Assembly: GCA_947625915.1 (NCBI GenBank)
Contig: CANQPX010000002.1
Location: 40,303 to 104,302 of the forward strand
DNA: 64,000 nucleotides
Direction of reading: 5' to 3'
Source of the DNA: an uncultured Clostridia bacterium
Lineage (GTDB): Bacteria; Bacillota; Clostridia; Oscillospirales; Ruminococcaceae
Shown here: positions 3,939-57,525 of the stretch, piece by piece
Layout: each line of letters starts with the position of its first letter
Numbering within the stretch: position 1 is the stretch's first letter
Notes under the pieces: generated by a model
The model's input: only the letters and a program-made list of their open reading frames with translations
Databases searched by the model: none
Told to the model about the DNA's origin: nothing
Translations under genes and position numbers: made by a program

Positions 3939-4766
3939 TTATTCTCCGTTCAAACCAAGCAATTTTTCCGCATTACGGTGGAAAATATTCTGCCGTTCCT
4001 CTTCCGTAAGGGGAAGTCTTTCCAGCATCTTCATTTCTCTTGACGACGGGTGCCACGGGCAGTCGGAAGCGAAGAGTATCTTATCCGAGCCGTGGTTCCT
4101 TATGATCCTGAGGACTTGTTCATCGGGCAGGAGACCTTCCGTGAACGCGGTATCGAGGTAAACGTTTTTGCCCACGAGGTATTTTTCGGTATCGTCCCAG
4201 CAGTCGCAGCCGCCGAGGTGTGCCATTATCATTTTAAGATCGGGGAATTTATCTGCTATCTTTGCGCCCATTTGGGGAGTACAATGTATTTTATCGGGCG
4301 ACACCACATCAAATCCCGCATGGAATATCAGCGGCAAGCCCAGTTCTGCACATTTTTGATATATCGGGAAAGCTTTCTCATCATCTGCGCAGAATCCCTG
4401 ATAGTCGGGGTGAAGTTTAATGCCGTGCAGACCGAGTGTTTTTATCCGTTCCAGTTCGGGAAGGGCGTCTTCCGCGTCGGGGTGGACAGTTCCGAAACAT
4501 AACAATCTGCCCGTAAATTCTTCCTGAACGCTTTTTGCCCAGTTATTAATAGTATGCTGTTGGGAAGGTTTTGTTGCTATCGGGAGTATGACCGACATAT
4601 CTACGCCCCACTCGTTCATTTTCCCGACAAGTTCGTTTACAGTGCCGTTTGTAACGGGCAGAGCCTTATCGCGGAAATCTGACTCCATCATAGTACGGGT
4701 AAGGTTGGTCATAGCTTTTTCGGCGATTGTTTCCGTAAATGCGTGCGTATGGAAATCGATATACAT
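3939..4766 (-). CDS. amidohydrolase-family metal-dependent hydrolase (TIM barrel)
   Basis: 275-aa ORF. N-terminal MYIDFHTHAF (HxH metal motif) plus later conserved His/Asp positions typical of the amidohydrolase_2 fold. Confidence 0.7.
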   Translation of the reverse strand: MYIDFHTHAFTETIAEKAMTNLTRTMMESDFRDKALPVTNGTVNELVGKMNEWGVDMSVILPIATKPSQQHTINNWAKSVQEEFTGRLLCFGTVHPDAEDALPELERIKTLGLHGIKLHPDYQGFCADDEKAFPIYQKCAELGLPLIFHAGFDVVSPDKIHCTPQMGAKIADKFPDLKMIMAHLGGCDCWDDTEKYLVGKNVYLDTAFTEGLLPDEQVLRIIRNHGSDKILFASDCPWHPSSREMKMLERLPLTEEERQNIFHRNAEKLLGLNGE

Positions 4767-4839
4767 AATTTGATTCTCCTAACGAAATTTTTAAGAACGG
4801 CTGTTCTTAGCTTTTATTTTGTTTGTAACCTCTCAAAAA

Positions 4840-5715
4840 ATCTAAGAGCAGAACACATAAAAATCCTGTCAATACCTCAACTCTTAACTCTCAACACTCA
4901 ACACTGCCGAGTGGCAGACAACCATAAGGGAAAGCGTGGGGTGGGTGGGGGACGGTCGGCGGGGTTCTTTAGTTTGCTTTTCTTGATTTTTTATTTTGTA
5001 TATAACCTTTTTTGCCTATTTGTGCGAGGGGCAGACAACCATAAGGGAAGGGGAAACCCGAGCGCCCCTAAGGACGCTCGCCGGGTTTCCCCGTTCCCTT
5101 AGTTTTTCTCCCCTCGCGCTCCCCACTTTCCTTCAACCCTTCCCCTTCCGCGCTCGCTATCCTAAAGTTGAAATTATAGAAGAAATATCAAAGTTCTCTT
5201 GAACATAGATCATTGAGTCAACAGGAACCCTTAGTTTTGTTTATCTTAGTAAGAGAGTTCTACTGTTAGTTTGATATTCAACAATTATAGAGTTCTAAAC
5301 AATAGGATTTCTTTTTTAAAAAATTTCTCCCGTTTAGAACGCTTTTTCTTCTTTAATTTTCATCTAATAGTAGTGCGCTCGTACTAAGATAAGTTAAACC
5401 AAAGAACCCGTAGCCAACGCAATCCCCATTCAAGAGTTCTAAAAAGCTTTTTCTATAATTTCTACTTTAGCATAGCGAGCGCGGAGAGGGATAGGGTTAG
5501 GAAAAGAGGGGCGCGGGGGGAGAAACGCAGGGAAAGGGAGAACCCGGCGAGCGCCTATGGGCGCGTTCGGGTTCGCCCTTTCCTGAAGTGTCATCCCCCC
5601 GAACGATTAGGCAAAAAGGGTTATAAGAAAAGTAAAAGATAAGAACAGAATACAAAAGAACCCCACCCCAAAAGAAAAAATGAAAAGATTTTACTAAGCT
5701 TTTGTTAAAAGCACC
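4840..5715. repeat. large nested imperfect palindrome, copy 1 (non-coding)
   Basis: Dyad symmetry is centred near 5316. An AT-rich core of ~310 bp is bounded by CCGCGCTCGCTAT (5148..5160) and ATAGCGAGCGCGG (5472..5484). GC-rich ~90-nt hairpin arms lie at 5025..5116 and 5515..5600, and the outer flanks also mirror each other. It shares long exact blocks with 24180..25070. Only repeat-derived low-complexity ORFs are present. Confidence 0.85.
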
Positions 5716-5723
5716 CCCATGCC

Positions 5724-5752
5724 TTGACATCATAACAAAAAAGCACTATAAT
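5724..5752 (+). promoter_or_regulatory. consensus sigma-A promoter
   Basis: TTGACA (5724..5729), exactly 17 nt, then TATAAT (5747..5752). Lies 35 nt upstream of the small ORF at 5787. Confidence 0.65.
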
Positions 5753-5786
5753 ATATTTATAAGCTTGGTTATAAGGAGGCGAAGCT

Positions 5787-5933
5787 ATGGGACAGACCGA
5801 CAGCCAATTCAAAGCTTTTATCCGCTTTATCCTTGATGCTCTTAAAGAAGCGGATAATGAGACAGATGAAGCAAAACATAAAGCAAAAATGGCAAAAATT
5901 ATTGAAAATTTGCAGAAAATACTCGAAGATTAA
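5787..5933 (+). CDS. small hypothetical protein (48 aa, helical, charged)
   Basis: ATG at 5787 preceded by AAGGAGG (5773..5779). Translation is MGQTDSQFKAFIRFILDALKEADNETDEAKHKAKMAKIIENLQKILED. Framed by a consensus promoter and a terminator. It is too short for the ORF track. Confidence 0.55.
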   Translation: MGQTDSQFKAFIRFILDALKEADNETDEAKHKAKMAKIIENLQKILED

Positions 5934-5950
5934 TGAAAATTACCATTTAA

Positions 5951-5984
5951 GGTGTAAAGCTCAGGCTTTGCACCTTTTATTTTC
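5951..5984. terminator. rho-independent terminator (probably bidirectional)
   Basis: Hairpin GGTGTAAAGC-TCAG-GCTTTGCACC followed by TTTTATTTT. Lies between the convergent small ORF and the 5983..6669 gene. Confidence 0.65.
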
Positions 5985-6669
5985 AGTTCCTCGAAACAAG
6001 AAACTTTATCGCCCTCTCAATGCTGTCCTTGGAATTGCCCCAGTCCGCATCTTTGCCTGTGTTGCGGTAATCATACATTGAGCAGTAATGGGAAACGTCT
6101 TTGTATAAAAGCGCGATCTGCTTTTCGGTAAGCTCTCCCGCAAGTTTTCCGAAGCTTTCCAGATCGTCTTTTTTCAGATACGCGGGCGCAAGCGACTGCA
6201 AAAGATCATAATGCGGCAGACAGATGTATTCCTGCTCCGCAAGCAGTTCGCGGAATTCTTTCTGCTGCGAATACATCTCGAAAAACGTCCGCATGAGCCG
6301 TTCCATGCCCCAGTCAACTTTCTCGCATACAAAACAAGTGCCGTTTATCGCAGAAAGTTTTTCTTTCCTTGCGTTTTTCGGCTCAAAAAGCTTTTTCCGC
6401 GAAAATAACTGCTTGTCAACTTCTTCAAGATGAGTTTGCAGCATGAGCGCAAGGGAAAGACGGTTCTTCTGCTTTAACATTTGCTGAAAATGCGTGTGGC
6501 AAAATCCCGCGCGGTTCGTTTCGATGCGGACATCGGGTTCCATCATCGCCGCGCCCATGATATACTCCACCGTACGCTGCTCCAGCATATCACGCATACG
6601 GCATATGGGGCAGCCTTCCTTTGGTTCAAGTATCTCGCTTATCGGGATAGTCAGAATACTTTCGCGCAT
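5983..6669 (-). CDS. Cys-rich conserved hypothetical protein (DUF6062-like)
   Basis: 228-aa ORF with paired Cys/His motifs: CPICR...FCHTH and CFVCE...CLPH. Resembles a clostridial family of unknown function. The family name is from memory and is not verified. Confidence 0.5.
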   Translation of the reverse strand: MRESILTIPISEILEPKEGCPICRMRDMLEQRTVEYIMGAAMMEPDVRIETNRAGFCHTHFQQMLKQKNRLSLALMLQTHLEEVDKQLFSRKKLFEPKNARKEKLSAINGTCFVCEKVDWGMERLMRTFFEMYSQQKEFRELLAEQEYICLPHYDLLQSLAPAYLKKDDLESFGKLAGELTEKQIALLYKDVSHYCSMYDYRNTGKDADWGNSKDSIERAIKFLVSRN

Positions 6670-6682
6670 AAAATAACTCCTT

Positions 6683-7486
6683 TCATGTTCCCGTTCTCAT
6701 ATAATGGAAAAGATACTGTTGGGCGATGCCTGCATACGGCAGGACAAATTCCGGAAAACCGTCGGGATAGAACTGCTCCATAACACGTTTCATCCATACG
6801 TCCATGGGAACGCAGTCTATGCGGTACATTCCGTAAAGCATGGCACAGTCAGCAACTTTCGGACCGACGCCTTTTATCGTCATAAGTATCTTCCGTATCT
6901 CCTCGGTGGGGAAATTTTTTATATCATCAAGAACTATCTCCCGATCGTTCAGTTTTCGGACGCAATCGGCTATGTATTTTGCACGGAAACCCGCTCTCAG
7001 CGGCGCAAGATCATCAGGTGAAATGCCGTTCATATCTTCAAATTTCGGGAAACCGCCGTACATTTCGCAAAGCCGCCCGATAATTCCCTTTATGCGCGGG
7101 ATATTGTTGTTCTGGGAAATTATAAAGGAGCATAACGCTTCCCAGCTGTCCTGACGGAGTATCCTTATCCCGCCCGCATAGGCGCAGGCTTTTGAAAGTG
7201 CAGGATCTTCGGAAAAAATGCGTTTTATCTCGGAATAGTCCGTTTCAAGATCAAAATACGGCAGCCAGACATTTACAAATGTACTTTCGTCAGTATCGCG
7301 GAAACGGAAATAGTCCTTTTCCGCCGAGACAGTGAGCGGAGTATTCAGCATAAAGCCGCGGTAAACACATTCCGAGCCGTTTCCCTGACGTTCCCAGCGG
7401 AAAGCCTGACCGCAGTCAAGCGTTTCGTCAAGGTCAAAGTCGGAAGTTTTCAGAAGTATATCCTCTCCCTGCTTTATATATTCCAT
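6683..7486 (-). CDS. ogg: 8-oxoguanine DNA glycosylase / HhH-GPD N-glycosylase-DNA lyase
   Basis: 267-aa ORF. N-terminal OGG-type motif LDCGQAFRW, then an HhH-GPD region (IKGVGPKVADC). Confidence 0.7.
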   Translation of the reverse strand: MEYIKQGEDILLKTSDFDLDETLDCGQAFRWERQGNGSECVYRGFMLNTPLTVSAEKDYFRFRDTDESTFVNVWLPYFDLETDYSEIKRIFSEDPALSKACAYAGGIRILRQDSWEALCSFIISQNNNIPRIKGIIGRLCEMYGGFPKFEDMNGISPDDLAPLRAGFRAKYIADCVRKLNDREIVLDDIKNFPTEEIRKILMTIKGVGPKVADCAMLYGMYRIDCVPMDVWMKRVMEQFYPDGFPEFVLPYAGIAQQYLFHYMRTGT

Positions 7487-7660
7487 TCAAAGACTCCTTT
7501 TAAAAAAAACTATACTTATTATACCATTTGCACCGTCAAAAGTCAACATCACCGTTCTCTGCTTTGACATTGTTGTCCCCATTGTCTGCCGCAGCGGAAT
7601 AATCGGACTTGCCCCCGAATATAGTTTTAAAAAGCAGTCCATATTACGGGAGGAAAATTT

Positions 7661-10333
7661 ATGCTGGAAATTCTGGAAAGACCTTATACTTCAAGCTCAA
7701 AAGGACTTTCCTCGGCTGACGCTGCGGAAAAGCTCATACAATACGGAGAAAATTCTCTTGCAAAGGAAAAGAAAGCAAGACCTCTGAAAATTTTTCTCGG
7801 TCAGTTCCGTGATGTAATGATAATGATACTTCTTGCTGCAACGGTCATATCCTTTTGCCTCGGAGAAGTATACGACGCGGTAACGATCGTAATTATCGTA
7901 CTGCTGAACGCTATACTCGGTTTTATTCAGGAATACCGCACCGAAAAAACTCTTATCGCTCTGCGGAACATGACCGCTCCTTCCGCAAAATGCTGGCGTG
8001 ACGGCGCGCTGACCACCGTTCCCGCAGCGGAACTTGTTCCGGGGGATATCATACGCCTTGAAGCAGGCGACAAAGTTCCCGCCGACTGTATCATCATTTC
8101 CTGCAAAGGACTTCTTGCGGAGGAAAGTATCCTCACAGGCGAATCTGCCGCCGTTCCCAAGACCGAAGGCGACCCTTCCGACACGGACAATTCAATCGGG
8201 AAAGCGGACGCGGTCTACAGCGGAACTGTCATCGTCAAAGGCTCTGCCGAAGCAAAAGTCATCGCTACCGGACTCAATGCGCAAATGGGCAGGATCTCGG
8301 GTATGCTTAACGATATCGATGACGAAATGACCCCTCTCCAGAAACGTCTTGCCGAACTCGGAAAGATAATTGCTCTTATATGTCTCGGAGTCTGCGTCAT
8401 AGTAAGCGGCGCGGGGATACTCCGCGGCGAGCCTGTTTTTGATATGCTCATGACAGGCATCACAATTGCTATAGCAGCGATACCGGAGGGGCTTCCCGCG
8501 ACCGTGACTATCGCACTTGCACTTGCAACGGGAAGAATGCTGAAAAAGAATGCTCTCGTACATAAACTCCATTCTGTGGAAACTTTAGGCTGCGCGTCAG
8601 TTATATGCACCGACAAGACAGGAACTGTAACCGAAAATAAAATGACCGTCACAAACGCTTTTTGCGGCGGAAAGGAATTTTCCTTTTCGGGTAACGGCTA
8701 CCGTATGGCAGGAGAGATAACTCTTGACGGCTCGAGAGTAAATCCCGCTTCCGAACCCGCGTTAAAGGAAATGCTCATCTGCGGGACGCTTTGTACCGGA
8801 TCGTCAATTTCCTCCGACAAAAAAATTACCGTCCGAGACAGAGGAAAACTCGATCTTAAAGGAGAATGGAAAGTTACAGGCGATCCTACCGAACTTGCTA
8901 TCCTCATTGCCGCCGCAAAAGGCGGCATAACTGCGGAAACTCTTTCCGCAGAGCATAAAAAGACCGATGAGATACCCTTTGACAGCAATTCCCGCTGCAT
9001 GACGGTGATATGTTCCGAAAACGGCGGCAGAACGGCTTACACAAAAGGCGCGCCCGATGTTGTGATAAAGCGCTGCGGTTTTTATATGACCGACAGCGGA
9101 GCAGTTCCCATGACCGCAAGAAAGCGGCGGGAAATTTACGATATCCACGAAAAAATGACGGAAAACGCTTTGCGCGTTCTTGCATTTTGCAAAAAAGACG
9201 TTTCGGGGAATTCCGATCCCGAAAGCGGAATGATATTTCTCGGCATAATGGGAATGTCCGATCCTCCCCGAGCCGAAGCAAAACAAGCCGTAAGACTTTG
9301 CCGCAGCGCACATATCCGCACCGTTATGATAACCGGCGATCATAAGAACACCGCTGCCGCCGTTGCCAAGCAGGCGGGGATAATGCGTGAAGGCGATCTT
9401 GTTTTCACAGGTACGGAACTTGACCGTATGTCCGATACGGAACTTGACGGTATCATCGGCAAAACGGCTGTTTTTGCAAGAGTAAGTCCCGCCGACAAGC
9501 TGCGCATAGTCCGTGCTTTCAAGCGCAAAGGCGAGATAGTTACAATGACCGGAGACGGCGTGAACGACGCTCCCGCGGTAAAAGAAGCGAGCATCGGCGT
9601 TGCAATGGGACTTACCGGAACGGACGTCACAAAGCAGGCTGCGGACGTTGTGCTGCTTGACGATAATTTTGCAACGCTTGTAGGCGCAGTCGAACAGGGG
9701 CGCGGCATTTATGCAAACATAAGAAAATTTGTCCGTTATCTTTTAAGCTGCAACATCGGCGAAGTCCTCACAATGTTCCTCGGGATAGTTTTAGGTATGC
9801 CCATGGCTCTGCTGCCGACACAGATACTTCTTGTCAACCTTGTAACGGACGGACTTCCCGCGATCGCTCTGGGGGTCGAACCGCCCGACCGTGAGAACAT
9901 GAAAAAGCCGCCGAGAAGATCCGATGAAAGTTTTTTCTCGGGCGGACTAATGCAGAAAATAATTATCCGCGGTATCCTCATAGGTATCTGCACCTTGGGA
10001 AGTTTTGCGGTCACGGAAATTCTCAGCGGAAGTATTGCCGCGGCACGCACGGCAGCGCTTTTCACCCTTGTGACGTCACAGCTTTTTCATGTTTTCGAGT
10101 GCAAATCCGAGACGAAAAACATTTTTACCGTTCCGTACATGAACAACAAGAAGCTCATCGGAGCGGTGCTGATATCTCTTGCGGCAGTTCTCGGAGCAAT
10201 ATATTTCCCGCCTTTGCAGGTGATATTCGGAACGGTCCCGCTTACGGGAAAGCAGCTTCTCACGGCGTTGGGCATGGCATTTTCCGCACCGCTTTTGCAG
10301 GCGCTTACGCCGACGAAAAGAGAAGAAAATTAA
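7661..10333 (+). CDS. cation-translocating P-type ATPase (Ca2+-ATPase type, YloB/SERCA-like)
   Basis: 890-aa ORF with TGES, the phosphorylation motif CTDKTGTVTENKM, TGDHKNTA, MTGDGVNDAP and about 10 TM segments. Confidence 0.9.
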   Translation: MLEILERPYTSSSKGLSSADAAEKLIQYGENSLAKEKKARPLKIFLGQFRDVMIMILLAATVISFCLGEVYDAVTIVIIVLLNAILGFIQEYRTEKTLIALRNMTAPSAKCWRDGALTTVPAAELVPGDIIRLEAGDKVPADCIIISCKGLLAEESILTGESAAVPKTEGDPSDTDNSIGKADAVYSGTVIVKGSAEAKVIATGLNAQMGRISGMLNDIDDEMTPLQKRLAELGKIIALICLGVCVIVSGAGILRGEPVFDMLMTGITIAIAAIPEGLPATVTIALALATGRMLKKNALVHKLHSVETLGCASVICTDKTGTVTENKMTVTNAFCGGKEFSFSGNGYRMAGEITLDGSRVNPASEPALKEMLICGTLCTGSSISSDKKITVRDRGKLDLKGEWKVTGDPTELAILIAAAKGGITAETLSAEHKKTDEIPFDSNSRCMTVICSENGGRTAYTKGAPDVVIKRCGFYMTDSGAVPMTARKRREIYDIHEKMTENALRVLAFCKKDVSGNSDPESGMIFLGIMGMSDPPRAEAKQAVRLCRSAHIRTVMITGDHKNTAAAVAKQAGIMREGDLVFTGTELDRMSDTELDGIIGKTAVFARVSPADKLRIVRAFKRKGEIVTMTGDGVNDAPAVKEASIGVAMGLTGTDVTKQAADVVLLDDNFATLVGAVEQGRGIYANIRKFVRYLLSCNIGEVLTMFLGIVLGMPMALLPTQILLVNLVTDGLPAIALGVEPPDRENMKKPPRRSDESFFSGGLMQKIIIRGILIGICTLGSFAVTEILSGSIAAARTAALFTLVTSQLFHVFECKSETKNIFTVPYMNNKKLIGAVLISLAAVLGAIYFPPLQVIFGTVPLTGKQLLTALGMAFSAPLLQALTPTKREEN

Positions 10334-10340
10334 CAAGCTG

Positions 10341-10678
10341 ACGAAAAATAAAAACAGGCGCGGACAAACTAAAAAACAAAAAACAAAACTTTGCCCGAAA
10401 AGCCGGTCCGGCGCAGCCGCGCTGGCGGTTTCCAAAGGCAGAGCCTTTGGTCGCCATCCGCAGATGGCGAAATCCCCTAATGCCTTTAGGAGCTCCGCAA
10501 GGGGTGAATTTACGCCGTAGGCGTAAAGAGGGGGCTGCCCTGCGATAGAGGGCGCCCCCTTGGCATTAAAGGCTATTATAATTTATGCCTTGCAAAACAG
10601 CCCGGTGAGCTGTTTTGCAATAAAGAGCAATTGGTTTTTCTAAAAAATAATTCGTTGTTTGACAAAAACTGTATTATT
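10341..10678 (+). repeat. multi-hairpin intergenic element, copy 1
   Basis: Begins AGGCGCGGACAAACTAAAAAAC 8 nt after the ATPase stop. Contains the conserved hairpin series and the block AATCCCCTAATGCCTTTAGGAGCTCCGCA. Ends with the hairpin TTGCAAAACAGC-CCGGTGA-GCTGTTTTGCAA and a T-rich tail. Strand is given for the GGCGCGGAC-first orientation. Confidence 0.85.
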
Positions 10679-11916: not shown

Positions 11917-12190
11917 ATAATATAGTTCGTTGTCAAACAACTCACCGGGTTGTTTGACAAGGCTCAAATTATAATAACCGTTAATGCCAAGGGGAACGCT
12001 CTCTCTTGCAGAGCGTTCCCCTCTTTACGCCTGCGGCGTAAATTCACCCCCTGCGGAGCTCCTAAAGGCATTAGGGGCTTTCGCCATCTGCGGATGGCGA
12101 CAAGGGGTTTCACCCCTTGACCCCACCAGCGCGGCTGCGCCGGACCAGCTTTTCAATTTTGCGCTACGCACAAAATTGTTAAAAATAGAA
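11917..12190 (-). repeat. multi-hairpin intergenic element, copy 2 (variant ends)
   Basis: Reverse-complement orientation relative to copy 1. It shares hairpins P3-P8 and the AATCCCC...CCGCA block. The GGCGCGGAC end is replaced by the hairpin CAATTTTG.GCG/CGCAAAATTG, and the terminal hairpin uses the TTGTCAAACAAC arm. Confidence 0.8.
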
Positions 12191-22810: not shown

Positions 22811-24151
22811 TCATTTTACCACATTTACTTGAAAAATGCTATAGTTTTTTAAAATTTTTATAGTATTTTCATCAATGATCTCACCTGCCGCGACTGCGGG
22901 GACGCACGGCGGGCATACCGAAACGGTCTCGGCGGCTGTTCTGCCGAGGGAATCATCGACATTCACTGTCTCTCTGCTTGAAAAGAAAGCCTCCGCAGGA
23001 GAAAGTGCGCGTTTCAGCGGCAAAATATCAAGATCCGGCGCATCTATGCGAATTTTCGGCATTCTTATATTTTCCATAGCGGCTGCGATCTTCTGCATAT
23101 CTTCCTCTGTGTTCATGACAGAAAGCATCATCACCGTATGCACCGTATCGGAATATTCCGTCTCGATCCCCTGTACGCGAAGTTTTTCCGCAAGTTCATT
23201 TCCCGTAAGACCGCAAAGCAGCGCGTTCACCGTAATTTTTAACGGTTCTGAGCAAAGTATCTCATAAGCGGGCGAAAGCCTTTCTTTAAGAGCGTTTATC
23301 CGTTTCACCGTTTCGGAAAGGTCTTTGCGGAAATTTTCCGCAAGATATCTGTTGCATATGTCAAGGCTTTCCAGAATGAGATAACTCGGGCTTGTGCTGC
23401 CGAAAAGCGACATATTGCGTTTCAATCCCGCCGCAGTTATATCCATACGTTCTCCCGTATGCAGATATGCCCCGCCCGTAAGCACGGGAAGCGTTTTATG
23501 CGCAGAATCGCAGCACATATCCGCGCCGAGAGCGATGGGGTGCAAATTTTTCTCAAGGAACGCCAGATATGCGCCGTGTGCGTTATCCACCAGCAGCGGC
23601 AGATCATATTTATGACAAACATCGGCAATTCTCTCAATATCCGCCATTCCGCCCAGATAATCGGGAGAAGTGATAAACACACAAGCGGGGCATTTATCCT
23701 TATTGGAAACTATTGTATTTTCCACGTTATCGGGAGAAATTTCCCCCGAAACGGCGGAACCGTTCCTATATTCGGGATATATCCATATCGGATCAAGTTC
23801 CAACAAAACGCAGGTATTCATGACCGAGCGGTGGGCATTTCTCGCACATATAAAAGAGCGCCCCTTCCCGCACACAGAAGCGAGCATAGTTTGTATACAA
23901 AGAGTAGAACCGCCCGCCGAATATACAGTTTGTTTGCTGCCGAAAAGTTTTGAAGCGTTTAATTCGCTTTGTCTTATAATACCGTTTGCATCGAACAGTG
24001 AATCCGCGCCTTTAATTTCCGTAATATCGAGATCAAAGGCATTTCCGAGGTCGCAGTCGGGCAAAGTTTTTCCCTTATGACCGGGCATATGGGCGCGGGT
24101 GGGGAAACTTTTCACATAGTTTTCCGTGAAATCGTAAATAGGAGTATTCAT
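22811..24151 (-). CDS. PLP-dependent Orn/Lys/Arg decarboxylase family protein (YaaO-like)
   Basis: 446-aa ORF with N-terminal RAHMPGHKG, the PLP-lysine region SAHKTLP, and synteny with the darA-holB-yaaT block. Confidence 0.75.
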   Translation of the reverse strand: MNTPIYDFTENYVKSFPTRAHMPGHKGKTLPDCDLGNAFDLDITEIKGADSLFDANGIIRQSELNASKLFGSKQTVYSAGGSTLCIQTMLASVCGKGRSFICARNAHRSVMNTCVLLELDPIWIYPEYRNGSAVSGEISPDNVENTIVSNKDKCPACVFITSPDYLGGMADIERIADVCHKYDLPLLVDNAHGAYLAFLEKNLHPIALGADMCCDSAHKTLPVLTGGAYLHTGERMDITAAGLKRNMSLFGSTSPSYLILESLDICNRYLAENFRKDLSETVKRINALKERLSPAYEILCSEPLKITVNALLCGLTGNELAEKLRVQGIETEYSDTVHTVMMLSVMNTEEDMQKIAAAMENIRMPKIRIDAPDLDILPLKRALSPAEAFFSSRETVNVDDSLGRTAAETVSVCPPCVPAVAAGEIIDENTIKILKNYSIFQVNVVK

Positions 24152-24179
24152 AGGGGGACCTTTCTTTCAAATTTTTAGA

Positions 24180-25070
24180 GTGGAGGTAGGCTGAGCCTGC
24201 CGACAGTGTGGAGAGTTGAGATACTGACGGGGTTTTGAGGTGTTCTGTTCTTATATTTAGTTTTGTGAAAATTTCTTAGTTTTATGTTTCGGGGGACAGA
24301 ACCTTCCGGGAAGGGCGACCCCGAGAAATTAACAGGGACGCTCGCACGGGTTCTCCCTTCCCCTGCGGTTCTGTCCCCCGAGCCCCCTACTCCCCAACCC
24401 TATCCCTCTCCACGCTTGCTACCGAAAAGGTTGATATTATAGAAAAATTTTCTTCGTACTCTATAACATATATTATTGAGTCAATAGGAACCGTCAGTTT
24501 GGTTTATCTTGGTACGAGAGTTCTACTGTTAGTTTGATATTCAACAATTATAGAGTTCTACACGGGAAAGGACTCCACAAAAAGAAAATCTATTGTTTAG
24601 AACGCTTATTCTTCTTTAATTTTCATCTAATAGTAGTGCGCTCGTACTAAGATAAGCAAAACCAAAGAACCCGTAGCCATCGCTTTCCACGTTCAAGAGT
24701 TCTAAAAAACCTTTTCTATATTTTCAACTTTGAGCATAGCGAGCGCGGAAGGGGTTAGGTTGAAGGAAAGTGGGGAGCGCGAGGGGAGAAAAACTAAGGG
24801 AAGGGGAAAACCGTGCGAGCGCCCATAGGGGCGGTCGGGTTTCCCCGTCCCTTATGGTTGTCTTCCCCTCGCACGTTTTGGCAAAATAAAAATTTTACTA
24901 TAGCTTTTTAAGAAAAGCAATCTCCGCCCCTTTTACATTTGCCCCGAAAACACAAAAAGAGGTCATAAGCAAAATAAAGAATAAGAAAAGCAAACTAAAG
25001 AACCCGCAAAAGTTTTACACCGAAAGAAAAACTAAAAAGATTTTTACTAAGCTTTTGTTAAAAAGCAATT
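24180..25070. repeat. large nested imperfect palindrome, copy 2 (non-coding)
   Basis: Dyad symmetry is centred near 24579. The core is bounded by CCACGCTTGCTAC (24410..24422) and ATAGCGAGCGCGG (24736..24748). Hairpin arms lie at 24291..24379 and 24780..24871. It has exact 45-nt and 48-nt direct matches to the copy 1 core and an exact 43-nt inverted match to the copy 1 left arm. Confidence 0.85.
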
Positions 25071-25169
25071 TCCCTTTAGGGAAAAATAATTTACACCCTT
25101 GTAACATATGAGAAGGGAAATTACGCTATAATTAACCGAAAGAACTTCAATAAAAGGTGCCTTTTTTGT

Positions 25170-25904
25170 ATGAAAAAAATCAAATGCCTTAATTCCCTGC
25201 ATCTGAAAATAATTGCCGCAGCTTTTATGCTGCTCGACCATATGTGGTCAACGATAGCCCCCGATCAGATGTGGCTCACCGCCGCAGGAAGGATCGCGTT
25301 CCCGATATTTGCCTTCCAGATCGCGGAAGGGTTCTACTATACCAAAAACAGAAAAAAATATTTTTTCAGAATGCTGATATTTGCCGCGATCTCGGAAATA
25401 CCGTTCAACTTAATAGCTGGCGGAGGAATGATCTATCCGATACATCAGAATGTAATGTTTACATTTTGTATATCAATATTGATAATGATGCTCCTTGAAA
25501 AAGCAAAGGCAAAAAACATGACCGTCTTTATAATTGCCGCGATAATAACCGTTCCGCTCAGTTTTTTGATAGGCTTTATAACATTTGTAGACTATTTCGG
25601 ATACGGGATATGGACAGTGCTGATATTCTATCTTTTCCGCGGTGTTAAGTTCGGTCAGATAGCCGAACTTGCGGGAATAGTTTACATCAATTGGTTCATG
25701 ATAGGCGGACTTGTATATTATGTGCCGCTGTTCGGACATCAGATCGAGATCCCCGAGCAAGGCTTTGCAATACTTGCGCTTATACCCATATGGCTCTATA
25801 ACGGCAAAAAAGGTTATTCGGGAAAAGCGGCACAGTATTTCTTCTACATTTTCTACCCAGCGCATATGCTCATTCTTTACATTCTGGAGCATATAATGTA
25901 TTGA
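25170..25904 (+). CDS. TraX family membrane protein
   Basis: 244-aa polytopic ORF starting LHLKIIAAAFMLLDHMW, characteristic of the TraX family. Confidence 0.7.
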   Translation: MKKIKCLNSLHLKIIAAAFMLLDHMWSTIAPDQMWLTAAGRIAFPIFAFQIAEGFYYTKNRKKYFFRMLIFAAISEIPFNLIAGGGMIYPIHQNVMFTFCISILIMMLLEKAKAKNMTVFIIAAIITVPLSFLIGFITFVDYFGYGIWTVLIFYLFRGVKFGQIAELAGIVYINWFMIGGLVYYVPLFGHQIEIPEQGFAILALIPIWLYNGKKGYSGKAAQYFFYIFYPAHMLILYILEHIMY

Positions 25905-31318: not shown

Positions 31319-32932
31319 TCAGCGGTTAAGGATCTCACGAATCGTATCTCCATCTATTTCAATCTTGCCGTTCGGACCCGCTGTAACAACATACGGCTCT
31401 ACGGATCCGCCGTTCCCGCCGCCCTGACTGCTGCTGCCGCCGCTGCCGCCGGAACTTCCGCCGTTCTGTCCCATGCTGTCTGCACCGCCTGCGCTGTTTC
31501 CGCCGCCGTTGTTCCCGCCTGCGTCTCCGCCGCCATTTCCGCCGTTTCCTGACGAGCCGCCGGAATTGTTTCCGCCAACGCTGTTTCCGCTGCCGCTGCC
31601 GCCGCCATTTCCGCCGCCCTGACTGCTGCTGCCGCCGTTGCCGCCGGAACTTCCGCCGTCCTGACCTTCGCTGTCCCAATTTTCATCGTCCCAACCTTCA
31701 TCGTCCCAACCTTCGTCATCCCAATTTTCGTAGTCCCATTCGTCCTCGTCCCAATCTTCGCCGTCGTCGGGATATCCGTTATTAAAACTGTCTGCAATAT
31801 CAAGGCTGTATACTTCTTCGGGTCTGTTTATTCTTGAAGCATACGGGACAACTCCGTTATAGTTGCCTATCAGGAGCATGAAGTAAAATCCCGCGCAGTA
31901 AAGCGAAAGTGCAGACATTGCTGCGATCCCGTATTTTTTCCCGAGAGCGCGGTCCTTCTTGAAAAACTTATCTTCAAAAAATTCTTTTACCGCTTGTACA
32001 ACGTCGGGAGCCATGAAAATTATCGGCGCTATACAAACTATTATCGCAAATCTTGAAAGCACCGCATGGCGCATACCTGTCGCTTCAAACACGACCATGT
32101 ACATCGCGCAGTTTATATAGACCTTATTCTTCGGGTTTATCTCCATCAGCCGTTCCCTGAAGATGAAGCACAGCGCGAACGCCAGCCCGAACATTATCGT
32201 GAACTTCGGAGACAGCCCTACGATCACTTCTCTGTTTGTAGAGATGTCATACACATTATACATATAGAAGGTATCCGCCGCCCACGTTATGAATGTCCTT
32301 GAGAAAATGCAGAATATGACCGTCAGACCTGCAATAACGCCGAGGTATATATAACCGGGCTTTATCTGTAAAAGCCAGAACAGCGGTATCATTATCAGAG
32401 CCGACCAGTGGAAAAGCGACGCGGCAAGTATCATTACGAAAAATCTTGCGGAAAACTTTCTGTCCGCATATTTCAGCGCATATGTTACTATAAGCGCGGC
32501 AATGACCTGCCTTATGAAACACAGCGAATTAAAGAACAGACCCATGCAGAGGTATGCGGTAACGCTTATCCACGGGCATGAGGAATTCTTATATATCAGG
32601 AAAAACACAGCCGAATATATTATCAGCGATGTATAGATGAATACTGTATAATAACTTTCAAATTCGATCCCCAGCACATACAGCGGCATAAGGAAACCTT
32701 TTTCCATTTTAAGCTGCGATATCTCGTCCGGGTACATGAACGCGATGTTGTAATATGTACCGCCGTAGAGGCTGAAATCATAACCGACCTGATATCTTAC
32801 CGCGGATATGAACATAAAGACCGCAGCCGCAGCGCAGCAGTAGATAAGCCTGCCCGACCTTCCGCACTTTTCGCTGCAAAGCGGTATACCCACAAGGACG
32901 GTACCTATAAGTAAAAAGATATAAACTCCCAT
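31319..32932 (-). CDS. EpsG-family polysaccharide polymerase-like membrane protein with a long low-complexity tail
   Basis: 537-aa ORF. The N-terminal ~390 aa are polytopic with the EpsG-like RYQVGYDFSLY motif. The C-terminal ~150 aa are acidic Trp repeats plus G/S/N repeats. Confidence 0.65.
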   Translation of the reverse strand: MGVYIFLLIGTVLVGIPLCSEKCGRSGRLIYCCAAAAVFMFISAVRYQVGYDFSLYGGTYYNIAFMYPDEISQLKMEKGFLMPLYVLGIEFESYYTVFIYTSLIIYSAVFFLIYKNSSCPWISVTAYLCMGLFFNSLCFIRQVIAALIVTYALKYADRKFSARFFVMILAASLFHWSALIMIPLFWLLQIKPGYIYLGVIAGLTVIFCIFSRTFITWAADTFYMYNVYDISTNREVIVGLSPKFTIMFGLAFALCFIFRERLMEINPKNKVYINCAMYMVVFEATGMRHAVLSRFAIIVCIAPIIFMAPDVVQAVKEFFEDKFFKKDRALGKKYGIAAMSALSLYCAGFYFMLLIGNYNGVVPYASRINRPEEVYSLDIADSFNNGYPDDGEDWDEDEWDYENWDDEGWDDEGWDDENWDSEGQDGGSSGGNGGSSSQGGGNGGGSGSGNSVGGNNSGGSSGNGGNGGGDAGGNNGGGNSAGGADSMGQNGGSSGGSGGSSSQGGGNGGSVEPYVVTAGPNGKIEIDGDTIREILNR

Positions 32933-41878: not shown

Positions 41879-42203
41879 ATAATATAGTTGTTTGACATCG
41901 AACTATTTTTGAACAAATTGCTCTTTATTGCAAAACAGCTCACCGGGCTGTTTTGCAAGGCTTAAATGGTCTTAGCCGTTAATGCCAAGGGGAACGCTCT
42001 CTCTTGCAGAGCGTTCCCCTCTTGCCGCCCAAAGGGCGGCAATTCACCCCTTTGCAGAGGCGCCTTCGTAAAGGGGATTTCGCGCTCTGCGGAGCGCGAC
42101 GAGGGCTTCGCCCCTCGACCCCACCAGCGCGGCTGCGCTGGACCAGCTTTTCGGGCAAGGTTTTGTTTTTCGTTTTTTAGTTTGTCCGCGCCTGTTTTTT
42201 AAC
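41879..42203 (-). repeat. multi-hairpin intergenic element, copy 3
   Basis: Reverse-complement orientation. The GGCGCGGAC end (42185..42203 region) faces the stop of the minus-strand EAL gene. The full hairpin series is present. Confidence 0.85.
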
Positions 42204-47739: not shown

Positions 47740-48030
47740 AAAAGCCTTAAAGCAGGCGCGGACAAACTAAAAAACGAAAAACAAAACCTTGCCCGAAAAG
47801 CTGGTCCAGCGCAGCCGCGCTGGTGGGGTCGAGGGGCGAAGCCCTCGTCGCCGTCCGCAGACGGCGAAATCCCCTAATGCCTTTAGGAGCTCCGCAGGGG
47901 GTGAATTGCTGTCGCAGACAGCAAGAGGGGGAAGCCCTGCGATAGAGGGCTTCCCCCTTGGCATTAACGGCTTTTTCAAATTTTGTCTTGTCAAACAACC
48001 CGGTGAGTTGTTTGACAACAAAATATTTTT
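47740..48030 (+). repeat. multi-hairpin intergenic element, copy 4
   Basis: GGCGCGGACAAACTAAAAAACG starts at 47755. The hairpin series is conserved. The terminal hairpin uses the TTGTCAAACAAC/GTTGTTTGACAA arms, and the distal T-rich tail module is absent. Confidence 0.85.
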
Positions 48031-53448: not shown

Positions 53449-53478
53449 CAAAAGCCCCCGAACGGGGGCTTTTGGTTT
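53449..53478. terminator. rho-independent terminator after glyQS
   Basis: AAAAGCCCCCG-AA-CGGGGGCTTTTGG. The same 23-mer recurs at 53902..53924. Confidence 0.7.
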
Positions 53479-53480
53479 GT

Positions 53481-53886
53481 TGAAAAACTGAAAAATAGGC
53501 GCGGACAAACTAAAAAACGAAAAACAAAACCTTGCCCGAAAAGCTGGTCCAGCGCAGCCGCGCTGGTGGGGTCTAAGGGAAAAACGAATGCTTCGCATTC
53601 GTCTAAACCCCTTGTCGTCGAAACGAACGCAGTTCGTTTTTCGCAGTACGACGAAATTCCCCTAATGCCTTTAGGAGCTCCGCAGGGGGTGAATTTGCGC
53701 CGCAGGCGTAAAGAGGGGGAAGCCTCTGCAAAAACCAAAACTTCGTTTGGTTGAGGGCTTCCCCCTTGGCATTAACGGTTATTATAATTTATGCCTTGCA
53801 AAACAGCCCGGTGAGCTGTTTTGCAATAAAGAGCAATTTGTTTTTCTAAAAAATGATCTGTTGTTTGACAACAAATTATATTATGC
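53481..53886 (+). repeat. multi-hairpin intergenic element, copy 5 (expanded)
   Basis: Full-length copy with two of the hairpin modules enlarged by nested hairpins (53570..53650). Flanked by an identical 23-bp direct repeat. Confidence 0.85.
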
Positions 53887-57133: not shown

Positions 57134-57142
57134 TAAAGAATG

Positions 57143-57486
57143 TCGAAAAACTAAAAATAGGCGCGGACAAACTAAATAGCGAAAAACAAAACTTCGCCCG
57201 AAAAGCTGATCCAGCGCAGCCGCGCTGGTGGGGTCAAGGGGTGAAACCCCTTGTCGTTGTCCGCAGACAACGAAATCCCCTTTACGAAGGCGCCTCTGCA
57301 AAGGAGTGAATTGCCGCCCCTTTGGGCGGCAAGAGGGGAACGCTCTGCAAGAGAGAGCGTTCCCCTTGGCATCAACGGTTATTATAATTTAAACCTTGCC
57401 AAACAGCCCGGTGAGCTGTTTGGCAATATAGAGCAATTTGTTTTTCTAAAAATTGATCCGTTATTTGTCAACGAACTATACTATTA
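57143..57486 (+). repeat. multi-hairpin intergenic element, copy 6
   Basis: Starts 10 nt after the GH3 stop with GAAAAACTAAAAATAGGCGCGGACAAAC. The full hairpin series and the terminal TTGCCAAACAGC-CCGGTGA-GCTGTTTGGCAA hairpin are present. Confidence 0.85.
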
Positions 57487-57525
57487 AAAATTTAAATGCC
57501 GATGCTTTTGCACCGGCATTTTGTA
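57487..57525. terminator. bidirectional terminator (ftsZ side / GH3 side)
   Basis: ATGCCGATGC-TTTT-GCACCGGCAT, flanked by AAAAATTTAAA and TTTTG. Confidence 0.6.

What the first reader, a model, noticed from the sequence alone, without database searches (positions are those of the whole stretch)
24180..25070. Cores of the two palindromic elements share an orientation but their hairpin arms are swapped and inverted (inversion/flip-flop signature)
Core blocks match exactly in direct orientation: 5253..5297 equals 24516..24560 (45 nt) and 5346..5393 equals 24609..24656 (48 nt). In contrast, the left arm of copy 1 matches the right arm of copy 2 only as a reverse complement: 5094..5136 equals the rc of 24760..24802 (43 nt exact). 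The right arm of copy 1 (5485..5600) likewise resembles the rc of the left arm of copy 2 (24291..24420). The outermost left flank is also inverted between copies (4846..4900 against the rc of 24205..24260). The right-end motif next to the downstream gene is direct in both. Relative to its arms, the core is therefore flipped in one copy. This is what site-specific or homologous inversion across the CGCGCTCGCTAT/ATAGCGAGCGCG repeats would produce (an inverton-like switch or flip-flop isomers). No recombinase gene is present in the window.
Basis: partly seen in the sequence, partly recalled or inferred. Interest (0 to 1): 0.65.

Follow-up and report, generated by a model that had tools for sequence, protein, structure and literature searches.

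The report
High-copy palindromic repeat with flipped layers
The two loci are copies of a 0.7-kb hairpin-shaped repeat that occurs roughly 50-90 times in an uncultured rabbit-gut Oscillospiraceae genome; its concentric layers were flipped relative to one another in the past, and nothing shows it working as an active genetic switch today.

Summary
Both intergenic elements (4958-5667 and 24226-25005) are giant imperfect palindromes. A four-way comparison of their half-elements shows alternating layers. The arms come in two types that sit on opposite sides in the two copies. The roughly 110-nt inner "shell" on each side keeps the same orientation. The 31-nt centre is inverted again.

These are not two special loci. 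Unitig depth in four rabbit-gut runs is 48-142 times the flank depth, so this is a dispersed repeat family. Other copies carry the centre in either orientation and recombinant box/shell junctions. At these two loci, every independent assembly and unitig chain shows the window's arrangement. The one unitig resembling a flipped junction has no reciprocal partner. No promoter lies inside the element and no recombinase or transposase is encoded in the window.

Best reading: a new lineage-specific foldback or MITE-like repeat whose layers were shuffled by recombination or template switching between its own inverted repeats. That is historical shuffling, not a demonstrated inverton. Coverage is low (3-12x), so rare flipping is not excluded.

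The parts
4800..4957 (+). Debris left of copy 1. It holds a U-like outer block (4800-4833), the T motif of CTYAACW heptads plus a small hairpin (4838-4915), and a truncated arm start (4899-4957).
   Evidence: 4801-4830 is the rc of 5619-5648 (83%), and 4908-4932 matches 5025-5049 (96%). One search gives the T motif matches.
4958..5023 (+). Copy 1, outer terminal block U of the left arm (GGCGGGGTTCTTTAGTTTGCTTTTCTT...). This is the left boundary of the element.
   Evidence: Unitigs of other copies diverge exactly at 4957-4960 (loose ends). The terminal 24-mer is found twice.
5024..5147 (+). Copy 1 left arm, type A: a 94-nt G+C-rich hairpin H (5024-5117) plus linker K (5118-5147).
   Evidence: Self-complementarity is 80%. 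It is 90% identical to the rc of R2. Trans-informative sites lie at 5024-5146.
5148..5181 (+). Copy 1 left junction box J (CCGCGCTCGCTAT CCTAAAGTTGAAATTATAGAA). The arm/shell switch point lies here.
   Evidence: locates the motif. The last trans site is 5146 and the first cis site is 5161. The box is 92% complementary to the right box.
5182..5291 (+). Copy 1 L-shell, the left half of the inner core. It is in direct orientation relative to copy 2.
   Evidence: All informative sites are cis. It contains the exact 45-nt match 5253-5297. Depth is 48-88 times the flank at 95% likeness or better.
5292..5340 (.). Copy 1 centre: GTTCTAAAC box, 31-nt centre Z (5301-5331), GTTTAGAAC box. It is inverted relative to copy 2.
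   Evidence: The window orientation is confirmed by an 87-nt unitig.
5341..5450 (+). Copy 1 R-shell, the right half of the inner core. It is in direct orientation relative to copy 2.
   Evidence: Cis sites are. It contains the exact 48-nt match 5346-5393.
5451..5484 (-). Copy 1 right junction box J (…TTCTATAATTTCTACTTTAGC ATAGCGAGCGCGG).
   Evidence: The arrangement is supported by single-copy-depth unitigs in X1-X4 and by contigs L017 and L018.
5485..5667 (-). Copy 1 right arm, type B: linker K (5485-5513), hairpin H (5514-5601) and outer block U (5602-5667, ending GAACCCCACC).
   Evidence: It is nearest to L2 among the non-A arms (74%).
5668..5713 (+). M motif (AAAAGATTTTACTAAGCTTTTGTTAAAA) abutting the right end of copy 1.
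   Evidence: It is 88% identical to 25017-25067 in direct orientation. Depth is about 4 times the flank. In other copies M follows H directly (joints).
24186..24225 (-). Hairpin GTAGGCTGAGCCTGCC plus the T motif in the orientation opposite to copy 1. It abuts the left end of copy 2.
   Evidence: The same hairpin plus T lies upstream of the decarboxylase orthologue in relative L012, which lacks the big element.
24226..24409 (+). Copy 2 left arm, type B and the most diverged arm: U (24226-24288), hairpin H (24289-24381), linker K (24382-24409).
24410..24444 (+). Copy 2 left junction box, degenerate (CCACGCTTGCTAC CGAAAAGGTTGATATTATAGAA).
   Evidence: One search shows the sequence. There is no match to CGCGCTCGCTAT at 1 mismatch or fewer. 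A unitig chain links it to the B linker and the L-shell.
24445..24554 (+). Copy 2 L-shell.
24555..24603 (.). Copy 2 centre: GTTCTACAC box, 31-nt centre Z (24564-24594) in the opposite orientation to copy 1, GTTTAGAAC box.
24604..24713 (+). Copy 2 R-shell.
   Evidence: Most family members carry AA instead of TG at 24637-24638, which improves the internal palindrome.
24714..24748 (-). Copy 2 right junction box J (…ATAGCGAGCGCGG).
   Evidence: A unitig chain runs R-shell to box to A linker at single-copy depth in X2.
24749..25005 (-). Copy 2 right arm, type A: K (24749-24778), hairpin H (24779-24872), a roughly 70-nt insertion holding an M-like motif (24878-24950), and outer block U (24953-25005).
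   Evidence: The X4 strain's contig runs from the TraX flank in to 24858.
25017..25073 (+). M motif next to the right end of copy 2.
   Evidence: (D19).

Best explanation
Both loci are members of one lineage-specific, high-copy, non-coding dispersed repeat in an uncultured rabbit-gut Oscillospiraceae. I estimate about 50-90 copies per genome.

A full copy is a quasi-palindrome of about 0.7 kb, resembling a foldback element or a very long-armed MITE. It is built of concentric modules. From the outside in these are: outer block U, a 94-nt G+C-rich hairpin H, linker K, a 34-nt junction box J, a roughly 110-nt shell S with distinct and highly conserved left and right versions, a 9-nt GTTCTAAAC box, and a 31-nt centre Z.

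The left and right halves are inverted repeats of each other. An exchange between them at a given depth therefore inverts everything inside that point. I infer that such exchanges happened repeatedly during the family's history. Candidate mechanisms are homologous recombination across the 34-nt J boxes (92% complementary within copy 1), replication template switching within the hairpin (the only plausible route for a 31-nt centre between 9-nt boxes), and gene conversion from oppositely oriented copies.

The outcome is the alternating pattern seen between these two copies: arms swapped, shells direct, centre inverted. At these two loci the states are fixed, not switching. The element carries no recognisable promoter, gene or recombinase.

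Shown: the anatomy, the layer pattern, the positions of the switch points, the high copy number, the variety of combinations in other copies, and the fixed arrangement in all available assemblies.
Inferred: the mechanism of exchange, the mobility of the element, and the absence of a regulatory role.
For: - Palindromy. Copy 1 aligns with its own rc at 72% over 725 nt. As ssDNA the copies fold with dG -181 and -148 kcal/mol, z -18.8 and -15.1.
- Layering. The arms have 16 trans, 6 cis and 3 within-copy informative sites. The shell has 29 cis and none of the others. The centre scores 20/31 as rc against 9/31 direct.
- Switch points lie inside CCGCGCTCGCTAT and GTTCTAAAC.
- Copy number. Unitig depth on the shell is 48-88 times the flank, and on hairpin H 87-142 times, in four runs.
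- Discrete ends. Other copies diverge at 4957-4960 into unrelated flanks.
- Absence from relatives. The element is missing from the orthologous locus in relatives with 75% amino-acid identity.
- Family-wide shuffling. The same centre sequence is joined to the L-shell in both orientations (loose ends). Recombinants of CC-box with R-shell and GC-box with L-shell exist.
- Fixed state at these loci. L017 matches window 5106-8593 with 1 mismatch and L018 matches 5262-6793 exactly. Unitig chains at single-copy depth reproduce the copy 2 junctions, the copy 1 centre and the copy 1 right junction in all four runs. The X4 strain, about 97.5% identical, has the same outer R2 arm joined to the TraX flank.
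- Age of the swap. The swapped arms differ by 10% (type A) and 26% (type B), so the events are old relative to strain divergence.
- No promoter or terminator consensus lies inside the element. No recombinase or transposase was found among the window's proteins.
- Mechanism precedent. Template switching between imperfect inverted repeats homogenises the arms and inverts the spacer (PMC8604942). Small hairpin-associated inversions are common in plastomes (PMC6824564).
Against: - Only two complete copies could be read. The family-level statements rest on 31-mer unitigs of 30-115 nt, which cannot phase arm type against shell orientation.
- Part of the unitig depth could come from related species in the same samples.
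- Coverage of the organism is 3-12x and only contigs, not reads, were available. A minority isomer would be missed.
- One unitig is exactly the predicted left junction of a flipped copy 1.
- Within-element arm identity is low (63-77%), which makes RecA-dependent exchange inefficient outside the J box.
- The shells are far better conserved (blocks of 45-48 nt are identical) than the arms. This hints at a function, or a protein-binding role, that this explanation does not supply.
- No target-site duplication and no autonomous partner element were found, so mobility is unproven.
Confidence: 0.6

Rival explanations
1. Active site-specific inversion. A serine or tyrosine recombinase encoded elsewhere in the genome recognises the CGCGCTCGCTAT/ATAGCGAGCGCG boxes, and perhaps the GTTCTAAAC boxes. 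It flips the core, or the centre, reversibly at each of the many copies. This would be a genome-wide set of invertons, or a dispersed shufflon.
For: The switch points coincide with short, well conserved inverted boxes. Both orientations of the centre, and recombinant box/shell junctions, exist in the same samples. One unitig equals the predicted flipped left junction of copy 1 at near single-copy depth. The shells are conserved far beyond the arms, as protein-binding sites would be.
Against: The reciprocal junction for copy 1 is absent in all four runs, while the window junction is present in all four. Two other assemblies give the window orientation. Neither junction variant shows halved depth. 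The left box of copy 2 is degenerate. A 31-nt segment between 9-nt boxes is too short for a synaptic inversion, on my own knowledge of Hin/Gin-type systems. There is no promoter in the invertible part and no recombinase in 64 kb. With 50-90 copies, other loci explain the alternative junctions.
Confidence: 0.12
2. Modular mosaic without inversion. The hairpin arms (H+K) are independent REP/REPIN-like mobile units. They insert in either orientation next to a conserved core module, as REPs do in BIMEs. On this reading 'swapped arms' only reflects which arm subtype happened to land on which side.
For: Hairpin H is more abundant than the shell (87-142x against 48-88x). Variants lacking U, or joining H directly to M, exist (joints). 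A truncated solo arm lies at 4899-4957. Insertions occur between U and H (24878-24950). Compensatory differences keep the hairpins paired in both the A and B types.
Against: All four arms join the core at the same 13-nt box and always point inward, which independent insertions would not give. The centre is also inverted, and that has nothing to do with arm insertion. An H excess of roughly 2:1 is expected simply because each element has two arms.
Confidence: 0.15
3. Assembly artefact. The assembler threaded the wrong path through a high-copy repeat graph, so one or both copies in the window are chimeras of different genomic copies.
For: The family is high-copy. All short-read contigs of the organism break inside the arms. 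The source and technology of the window are unknown.
Against: L017, from another sample's assembly, covers R1, both shells, the centre and the A-type linker of copy 1 with 1 mismatch in 3488 nt. Unitig chains with zero mismatches at single-copy depth cover the diagnostic junctions of copy 2 on both sides and the centre and right junction of copy 1.
Confidence: 0.05

Closest known systems
Invertons (site-specific invertible promoters, e.g. fimS, Bacteroides PSA-type invertons; PMC11892184)
   Same: A DNA segment is bounded by inverted repeats, and its orientation differs between copies. The location is intergenic, between divergent genes, in a gut bacterium.
   Different: Invertons are single-purpose loci with short IRs, a promoter or coding payload, an invertase that is usually nearby, and both orientations present in one population. 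Here there are 50-90 dispersed copies and 200-330-nt composite arms. No promoter, invertase or mixed orientation was detected at either locus.
[quoted passage not shown]
   Same: Non-coding, intergenic, multi-copy, with terminal inverted repeats, discrete ends and a strong predicted hairpin. The element is absent from the orthologous locus of relatives.
   Different: At 0.7 kb it lies at or above the usual size range. Almost the whole element is palindromic. The centre, not the termini, is the best conserved part. No target-site duplication and no parent IS were found.
REP / REPIN / BIME elements (PMC3116915, PMC2817692)
   Same: G+C-rich extragenic palindromes in alternating orientation are assembled with other motifs into mosaic intergenic structures. 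Copy number is high and there is no target duplication.
   Different: REPs are 20-40 nt and REPINs about 100 nt. Here the hairpins are 94 nt and flank a 300-nt conserved asymmetric core. No RAYT could be sought because there is no genome. The host is a Firmicute, not a proteobacterium.
Eukaryotic foldback elements (FB, Galileo; PMC3573991)
   Same: Long, internally structured terminal inverted repeats make up most of the element. Copies are structurally dynamic, and exchange between TIRs causes inversions.
   Different: Those are eukaryotic, kilobase-scale, and associated with a P-superfamily transposase. There is no homology to them. The resemblance is architectural only.
Template-switch spacer inversions at quasi-palindromes (PMC8604942, PMC7202029) and hairpin-loop small inversions in plastomes (PMC6824564)
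   Same: A short segment between imperfect inverted repeats is found in either orientation, recurrently and without any recombinase. This matches the 31-nt centre between the GTTCTAAAC boxes.
   Different: Those cases are isolated hairpins. Here the process acts at several nested depths of a 0.7-kb palindrome and across a whole repeat family.
Parvovirus/AAV ITR flip-flop isomers
   Same: An inner asymmetric part of a palindrome is found in two orientations relative to the outer stem.
   Different: Flip and flop arise from hairpin transfer at the ends of linear ssDNA genomes. Here the palindromes are internal to a bacterial chromosome, and several layers differ.

Membership tests
Inverton (site-specific invertible switch) | Segment bounded by inverted repeats | tested here: met
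   The J boxes are 92% complementary over 37 nt in copy 1, and the GTTCTAAAC/GTTTAGAAC boxes bound the centre. The left J box of copy 2 is degenerate.
Inverton (site-specific invertible switch) | Both orientations coexist at the same locus within a population | tested here: inconclusive
   Only the window orientation appears in L017 and L018 and in the unitig chains. One flipped-like junction has no reciprocal. Coverage was 3-12x and only contigs were available, so a minority isomer cannot be excluded.
Inverton (site-specific invertible switch) | Invertase (serine or tyrosine recombinase) encoded nearby | tested here: not met
   No recombinase domain was found in the window's proteins (with the Pfam tables). 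The rest of the genome could not be searched.
Inverton (site-specific invertible switch) | Promoter or coding payload inside the invertible segment | tested here: not met
   No sigma-70-type promoter match lies inside either element. The only strong promoter (5724-5752) lies outside. There was no RNA data.
MITE | Terminal inverted repeats and discrete ends | tested here: met
   The ends are GGCGGGGTTCTTT... / ...GAACCCCACC. Other copies diverge at 4957-4960.
MITE | Multi-copy, dispersed, non-coding | tested here: met
   Depth is 48-142 times the flank. There are two copies in 64 kb in unrelated intergenic regions. No ORF has homologues.
MITE | Target-site duplication flanking each copy | tested here: not met
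   The flanks are TCGGC / ACCCC for copy 1 and CTGAC / GCAAA for copy 2. No direct repeat is present.
MITE | Autonomous IS with matching TIRs | not testable with these tools
   The genome of the organism is not available. Core k-mers are absent from the GTDB representative genomes, JGI metagenomes, IMG/VR, PLSDB and INPHARED.
REP/REPIN/BIME | Short (20-40 nt) G+C-rich palindromic units, in pairs of about 100 nt for REPINs | tested here: not met
   The hairpins are 88-94 nt and are embedded in a 0.7-kb palindrome.
REP/REPIN/BIME | Associated RAYT (IS200/IS605-like TnpA) in the genome | not testable with these tools
   None is in the window. The genome is unavailable.
Any Rfam RNA family | Covariance-model score at or above the gathering threshold | tested here: not met
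   There were no hits at gathering. Only sub-threshold generic hairpin (miRNA-precursor) matches appeared.

The most novel reading that the evidence does not exclude
The family is a dispersed, multi-layer invertible element. A trans-acting recombinase, or a hairpin-processing enzyme, would bind the strongly conserved shells and the GTTCTA/TAGAAC and CGCGCTCGCTAT boxes. It would flip the shell and the centre at dozens of intergenic sites, giving combinatorial states genome-wide, in effect a 'distributed shufflon'. A related possibility is a new bacterial foldback-type transposon whose mobility depends on cruciform extrusion.
Probability: 0.1. Interest if true: 0.8.

Novelty: new variant of a known kind. 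Interest (0 to 1): 0.45.

Why it matters
If the reading is right, this is an undescribed family of unusually large, almost fully palindromic interspersed repeats in a gut Firmicute. It would occupy perhaps 1-2% of the genome.

It gives a clean natural record of nested inversions inside a palindrome. The arms, shell and centre each carry their own orientation history, and the breakpoints fall in 9-13-nt inverted boxes.

That is useful in three ways:
- As a model for recombinase-free inversion and template switching in bacteria.
- As a warning for inverton callers such as PhaseFinder-type tools. Dispersed palindromic repeats generate 'both-orientation' junctions from different loci that mimic phase variation.
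- As an explanation for why short-read MAGs of this lineage fragment at these sites.

The extreme conservation of the asymmetric shells remains unexplained and may point to a host or element function.

Tried and rejected
Searches that gave nothing:
- Exact-pattern scans for core k-mers found nothing real. GTDB representatives gave 0 hits with a 24-mer that, as later showed, covered polymorphic sites. A 22-mer gave 1 chance hit in a Saprospiraceae MAG. JGI metagenomes gave 2 chance hits with no wider similarity. IMG/VR gave 0. The family could not be collected from public assemblies.
- I tried to pull further copies through spurious ORFs called inside the arms. The 68-aa pseudo-ORF found no protein sharing words.
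- Rfam gave nothing at gathering and only generic hairpin noise in E-value mode.
- Plasmid and phage collections gave no match.
- No RNA runs were available.

Checks that limited the analysis:
- The orthologous loci in relatives (P0002-P0004; L011-L015) lack the element and share only the small T motif. No cross-species orientation comparison was therefore possible.
- Contigs of the same strain break in the arms, except L017 and L018.

Readings considered and rejected:
- A small protein in the core. A 38-aa TTG-start ORF is open in both copies, but it has no ribosome-binding site, no homologues and spans the inverted centre.
- A Tn3-type TIME. The termini start GGGG, but there is no TAAG inner end and no 5-bp duplication.
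- An intrinsic terminator role. No consensus terminator was found.
- A LexA or other known operator in the shells. No match, by eye only.
Full report
**1. What is at the coordinates**

The finding concerns two intergenic regions of about 1 kb. Each lies between divergently transcribed housekeeping genes.
- Copy 1 (4767-5787) lies between an Amidohydro_2 gene (3939-4766, minus strand) and a 48-aa ORF (5787-5933, plus strand).
- Copy 2 (24152-25169) lies between an OKR_DC_1 decarboxylase (22811-24151, minus strand) and a TraX gene (25170-25904, plus strand).

Each region contains one giant imperfect palindrome. Copy 1 (4958-5667) aligns with its own reverse complement at 72% over 725 nt. The two copies align at 77% in direct orientation and at 72% as reverse complement over about 700 nt. 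As single-stranded DNA they fold into one long hairpin, with dG -181 and -148 kcal/mol and z-scores of -18.8 and -15.1.

**2. Anatomy and the layer pattern**

I cut each element at its centre and aligned the four half-elements: L1, rc-R1, L2 and rc-R2. From the outside in, a half consists of:
- an outer block U (GGCGGGGTTCTTTAGTTTGCTTTTCTT...);
- a G+C-rich hairpin H of 88-94 nt;
- a linker K;
- a junction box J (CCGCGCTCGCTAT + CTAAAGTTGAAATTATAGAA);
- a shell S of about 110 nt;
- a 9-nt box GTTCTAAAC;
- half of a 31-nt centre Z.

The parsimony-informative columns change sign along this axis.
- In U/H/K, 16 sites group L1 with R2 and R1 with L2 ('trans'). Six sites are 'cis' and three are 'within copy'.
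- In the shell, 29 sites are cis and none are otherwise. Fisher p is 1e-8.

Global arm identities agree with this: L1-rcR2 0.90, rcR1-L2 0.74, L1-L2 0.68, L2-rcR2 0.65. The arms therefore come in two types, A (L1, R2) and B (R1, L2), and the types sit on opposite sides in the two copies. R1 is about as close to R2 (0.76) as to rc-L2 (0.74).

5301-5331 matches the rc of 24564-24594 at 20/31, against 9/31 in direct orientation, and 0 of 20000 shuffles reach that score.

The trans-to-cis switch lies between 5146 and 5161, inside CCGCGCTCGCTAT. The cis-to-trans switch lies inside GTTCTAAAC.

Outside the palindrome, a 45-nt M motif abuts the right end in both copies in direct orientation. A T motif (CTYAACW heptads plus a small hairpin) lies to the left in both copies but in opposite orientations.

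**3. It is a high-copy family, not two special loci**

The organism is an uncultured Oscillospiraceae from rabbit gut. I laid Logan contigs from four runs on the loci. X1-X3 come from one sample and are identical to the window. X4 is a strain about 97.5% identical.

Flank depth is 3-12. On the element it is 100-1400. At 95% likeness or better, the L-shell is 48-88 times the flank depth and hairpin H is 87-142 times. Two copies in 64 kb is the density expected for 50-90 copies in a genome of a few megabases.

Unitigs from other copies diverge from copy 1 exactly at 4957-4960 into unrelated flanks. This defines a discrete end.

The element is absent upstream of the decarboxylase orthologue in relatives with 75% amino-acid identity. 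Those relatives keep only the T motif and its hairpin. T is therefore ancestral at that locus, and the element arrived next to it. A third copy also has a T-like sequence abutting its end, which suggests a target preference.

No target-site duplication is visible. Core k-mers are absent from GTDB representatives, JGI metagenomes, IMG/VR, PLSDB and INPHARED. Rfam has nothing.

**4. Is it switching?**

At copy 1, two other assemblies agree with the window. L017 covers 5106-8593 with one mismatch. That stretch includes the A-type linker, both shells, the centre and the whole B arm. L018 covers 5262-6793 exactly.

Unitigs with zero mismatches at single-copy depth reproduce:
- the copy 1 centre (87 nt);
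- the copy 1 right junction in all four runs;
- both diagnostic junctions of copy 2.

Assembly chimerism is therefore unlikely.

One 48-nt unitig, at depth 3.3-4.7 in X1-X3, reads L1-type box followed by R-shell. That is exactly the left junction a flipped copy 1 would have. The reciprocal junction is absent, and the window junction is present at full single-copy depth. With 50-90 copies, another locus is the simpler source.

Across the family, the same centre sequence (the ...GGACTCCGCAAAAAG... version) is joined to the L-shell in both orientations. Box/shell recombinants of both kinds also occur (loose ends).

There are caveats. The data are contigs rather than reads, at 3-12x. Unitigs are too short to phase arm type against shell orientation.

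**5. Mechanism**

No sigma-70-type promoter or intrinsic-terminator consensus lies inside either element. The perfect promoter at 5724-5752 is outside. No recombinase or transposase domain was found in the window's proteins, which are ordinary chromosomal genes: type IV pilus, ABC transport, glycogen synthesis, SecDF, and the FtsZ/FtsQ/MurG/FtsW cluster.

The best-supported account is that the palindrome's own halves exchange.
- An exchange at the 34-nt J boxes, which are 92% complementary within copy 1, inverts shell plus centre.
- An exchange at the 9-nt GTTCTAAAC boxes inverts the 31-nt centre. That segment is too short for a recombinase synapse (my own knowledge of Hin/Gin-type systems). 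It is typical of replication template switching at quasi-palindromes, which is known to invert spacers and homogenise arms (PMC8604942, PMC7202029), and of the hairpin-loop inversions common in plastomes (PMC6824564).
- Gene conversion from oppositely oriented copies would give the same patterns.

At least two nested events, plus either an opposite insertion orientation or a third outer event, separate the two copies. The 10% (type A) and 26% (type B) divergence of the swapped arms shows that these events are old.

One feature stays unexplained. The two shells are distinct from each other (about 60% identical) yet nearly invariant across the family. Blocks of 45 and 48 nt are identical here, and no variant at 10% or more appears between 24472 and 24632. 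This suggests a sequence-specific role, such as protein binding or mobilisation, that I could not identify.

**6. Comparison and verdict**

The element works like a foldback or long-TIR MITE-like repeat that undergoes IR-mediated inversions.
- It fails the inverton tests that could be run: no nearby invertase, no payload, no mixed orientation.
- It lacks the target duplication of DDE-type MITEs.
- It is far larger than REP or REPIN units.

I therefore file it as a new variant of a known kind, interspersed palindromic repeats. The 'inversion across the CGCGCTCGCTAT repeats' is supported as history. The 'active inverton or flip-flop switch' is not supported. Interest is moderate at 0.45.

Noticed in passing
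window 10339-10678(+), 11930-12154(-), 41912-42199(-), 47754-48018(+), 53478-53884(+), 57130-57500(+): A second, unrelated dispersed repeat: a multi-hairpin element of about 290 nt with six copies in 64 kb, all intergenic. RNAalifold predicts 84 pairs, and 17 of them show compensatory double changes among just six copies. One copy carries two extra inserted hairpins. There is no Rfam hit. It is a candidate novel structured RNA or a structured MITE, and may be more interesting than the finding itself.
   Followed up: partly
window 4838-4915 and 24186-24225; L012 5325-5366 and 5431-5465; L014 54-83: A T motif made of tandem CTYAACW heptads next to a GCAGGCTSAGCCTGC-type hairpin. It sits beside both palindromic elements, in opposite orientations, and beside a third copy seen only as a unitig. 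It is also present in relatives that lack the big element, upstream of the decarboxylase orthologue in L012 and near a contig end in L014. It may be an insertion target or an independent small repeat.
   Followed up: partly
window 5668-5713, 24883-24925, 25017-25073: An M motif (AAAAGATTTT(T)ACTAAGCTTTTGTTAAAA) abuts the right end of both elements. It also occurs inside a 70-nt insertion in the right arm of copy 2. Its depth is about 4 times the flank, and in other copies it follows hairpin H directly.
   Followed up: partly
window 5724-5933: A perfect sigma-70 consensus promoter (TTGACA, 17 nt, TATAAT; 12/12) drives a 48-aa ORF (MGQTDSQFKAFIRF...). The ORF has no Pfam match and is conserved next to a DUF6062 gene in other assemblies.
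   Followed up: no
window 4800-4957: A truncated extra left arm (a U-like block and a hairpin start) lies just outside copy 1, with the T motif between its two parts. It points to nested or abortive insertion, or to a rearrangement scar.
   Followed up: partly
window 31401-31675 (minus-strand gene 31319-32932, EpsG family): Degenerate CCGCC-rich tandem repeats lie inside the coding sequence and encode a Gly-rich low-complexity stretch at the C-terminal end of an EpsG-family protein.
   Followed up: no
L001-L007, L016 (contig ends at window 24792, 24351, 4948, 5690): All short-read assemblies of this organism break inside the arms of the element. The repeat family is therefore a major cause of MAG fragmentation for this lineage.
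   Followed up: yes
window 24637-24638 (and 5374-5375): Both window copies read TG here, where most family members read AA (GTAGAACGCTC). The majority form restores a TAGAAC box and a better internal palindrome.
   Followed up: no
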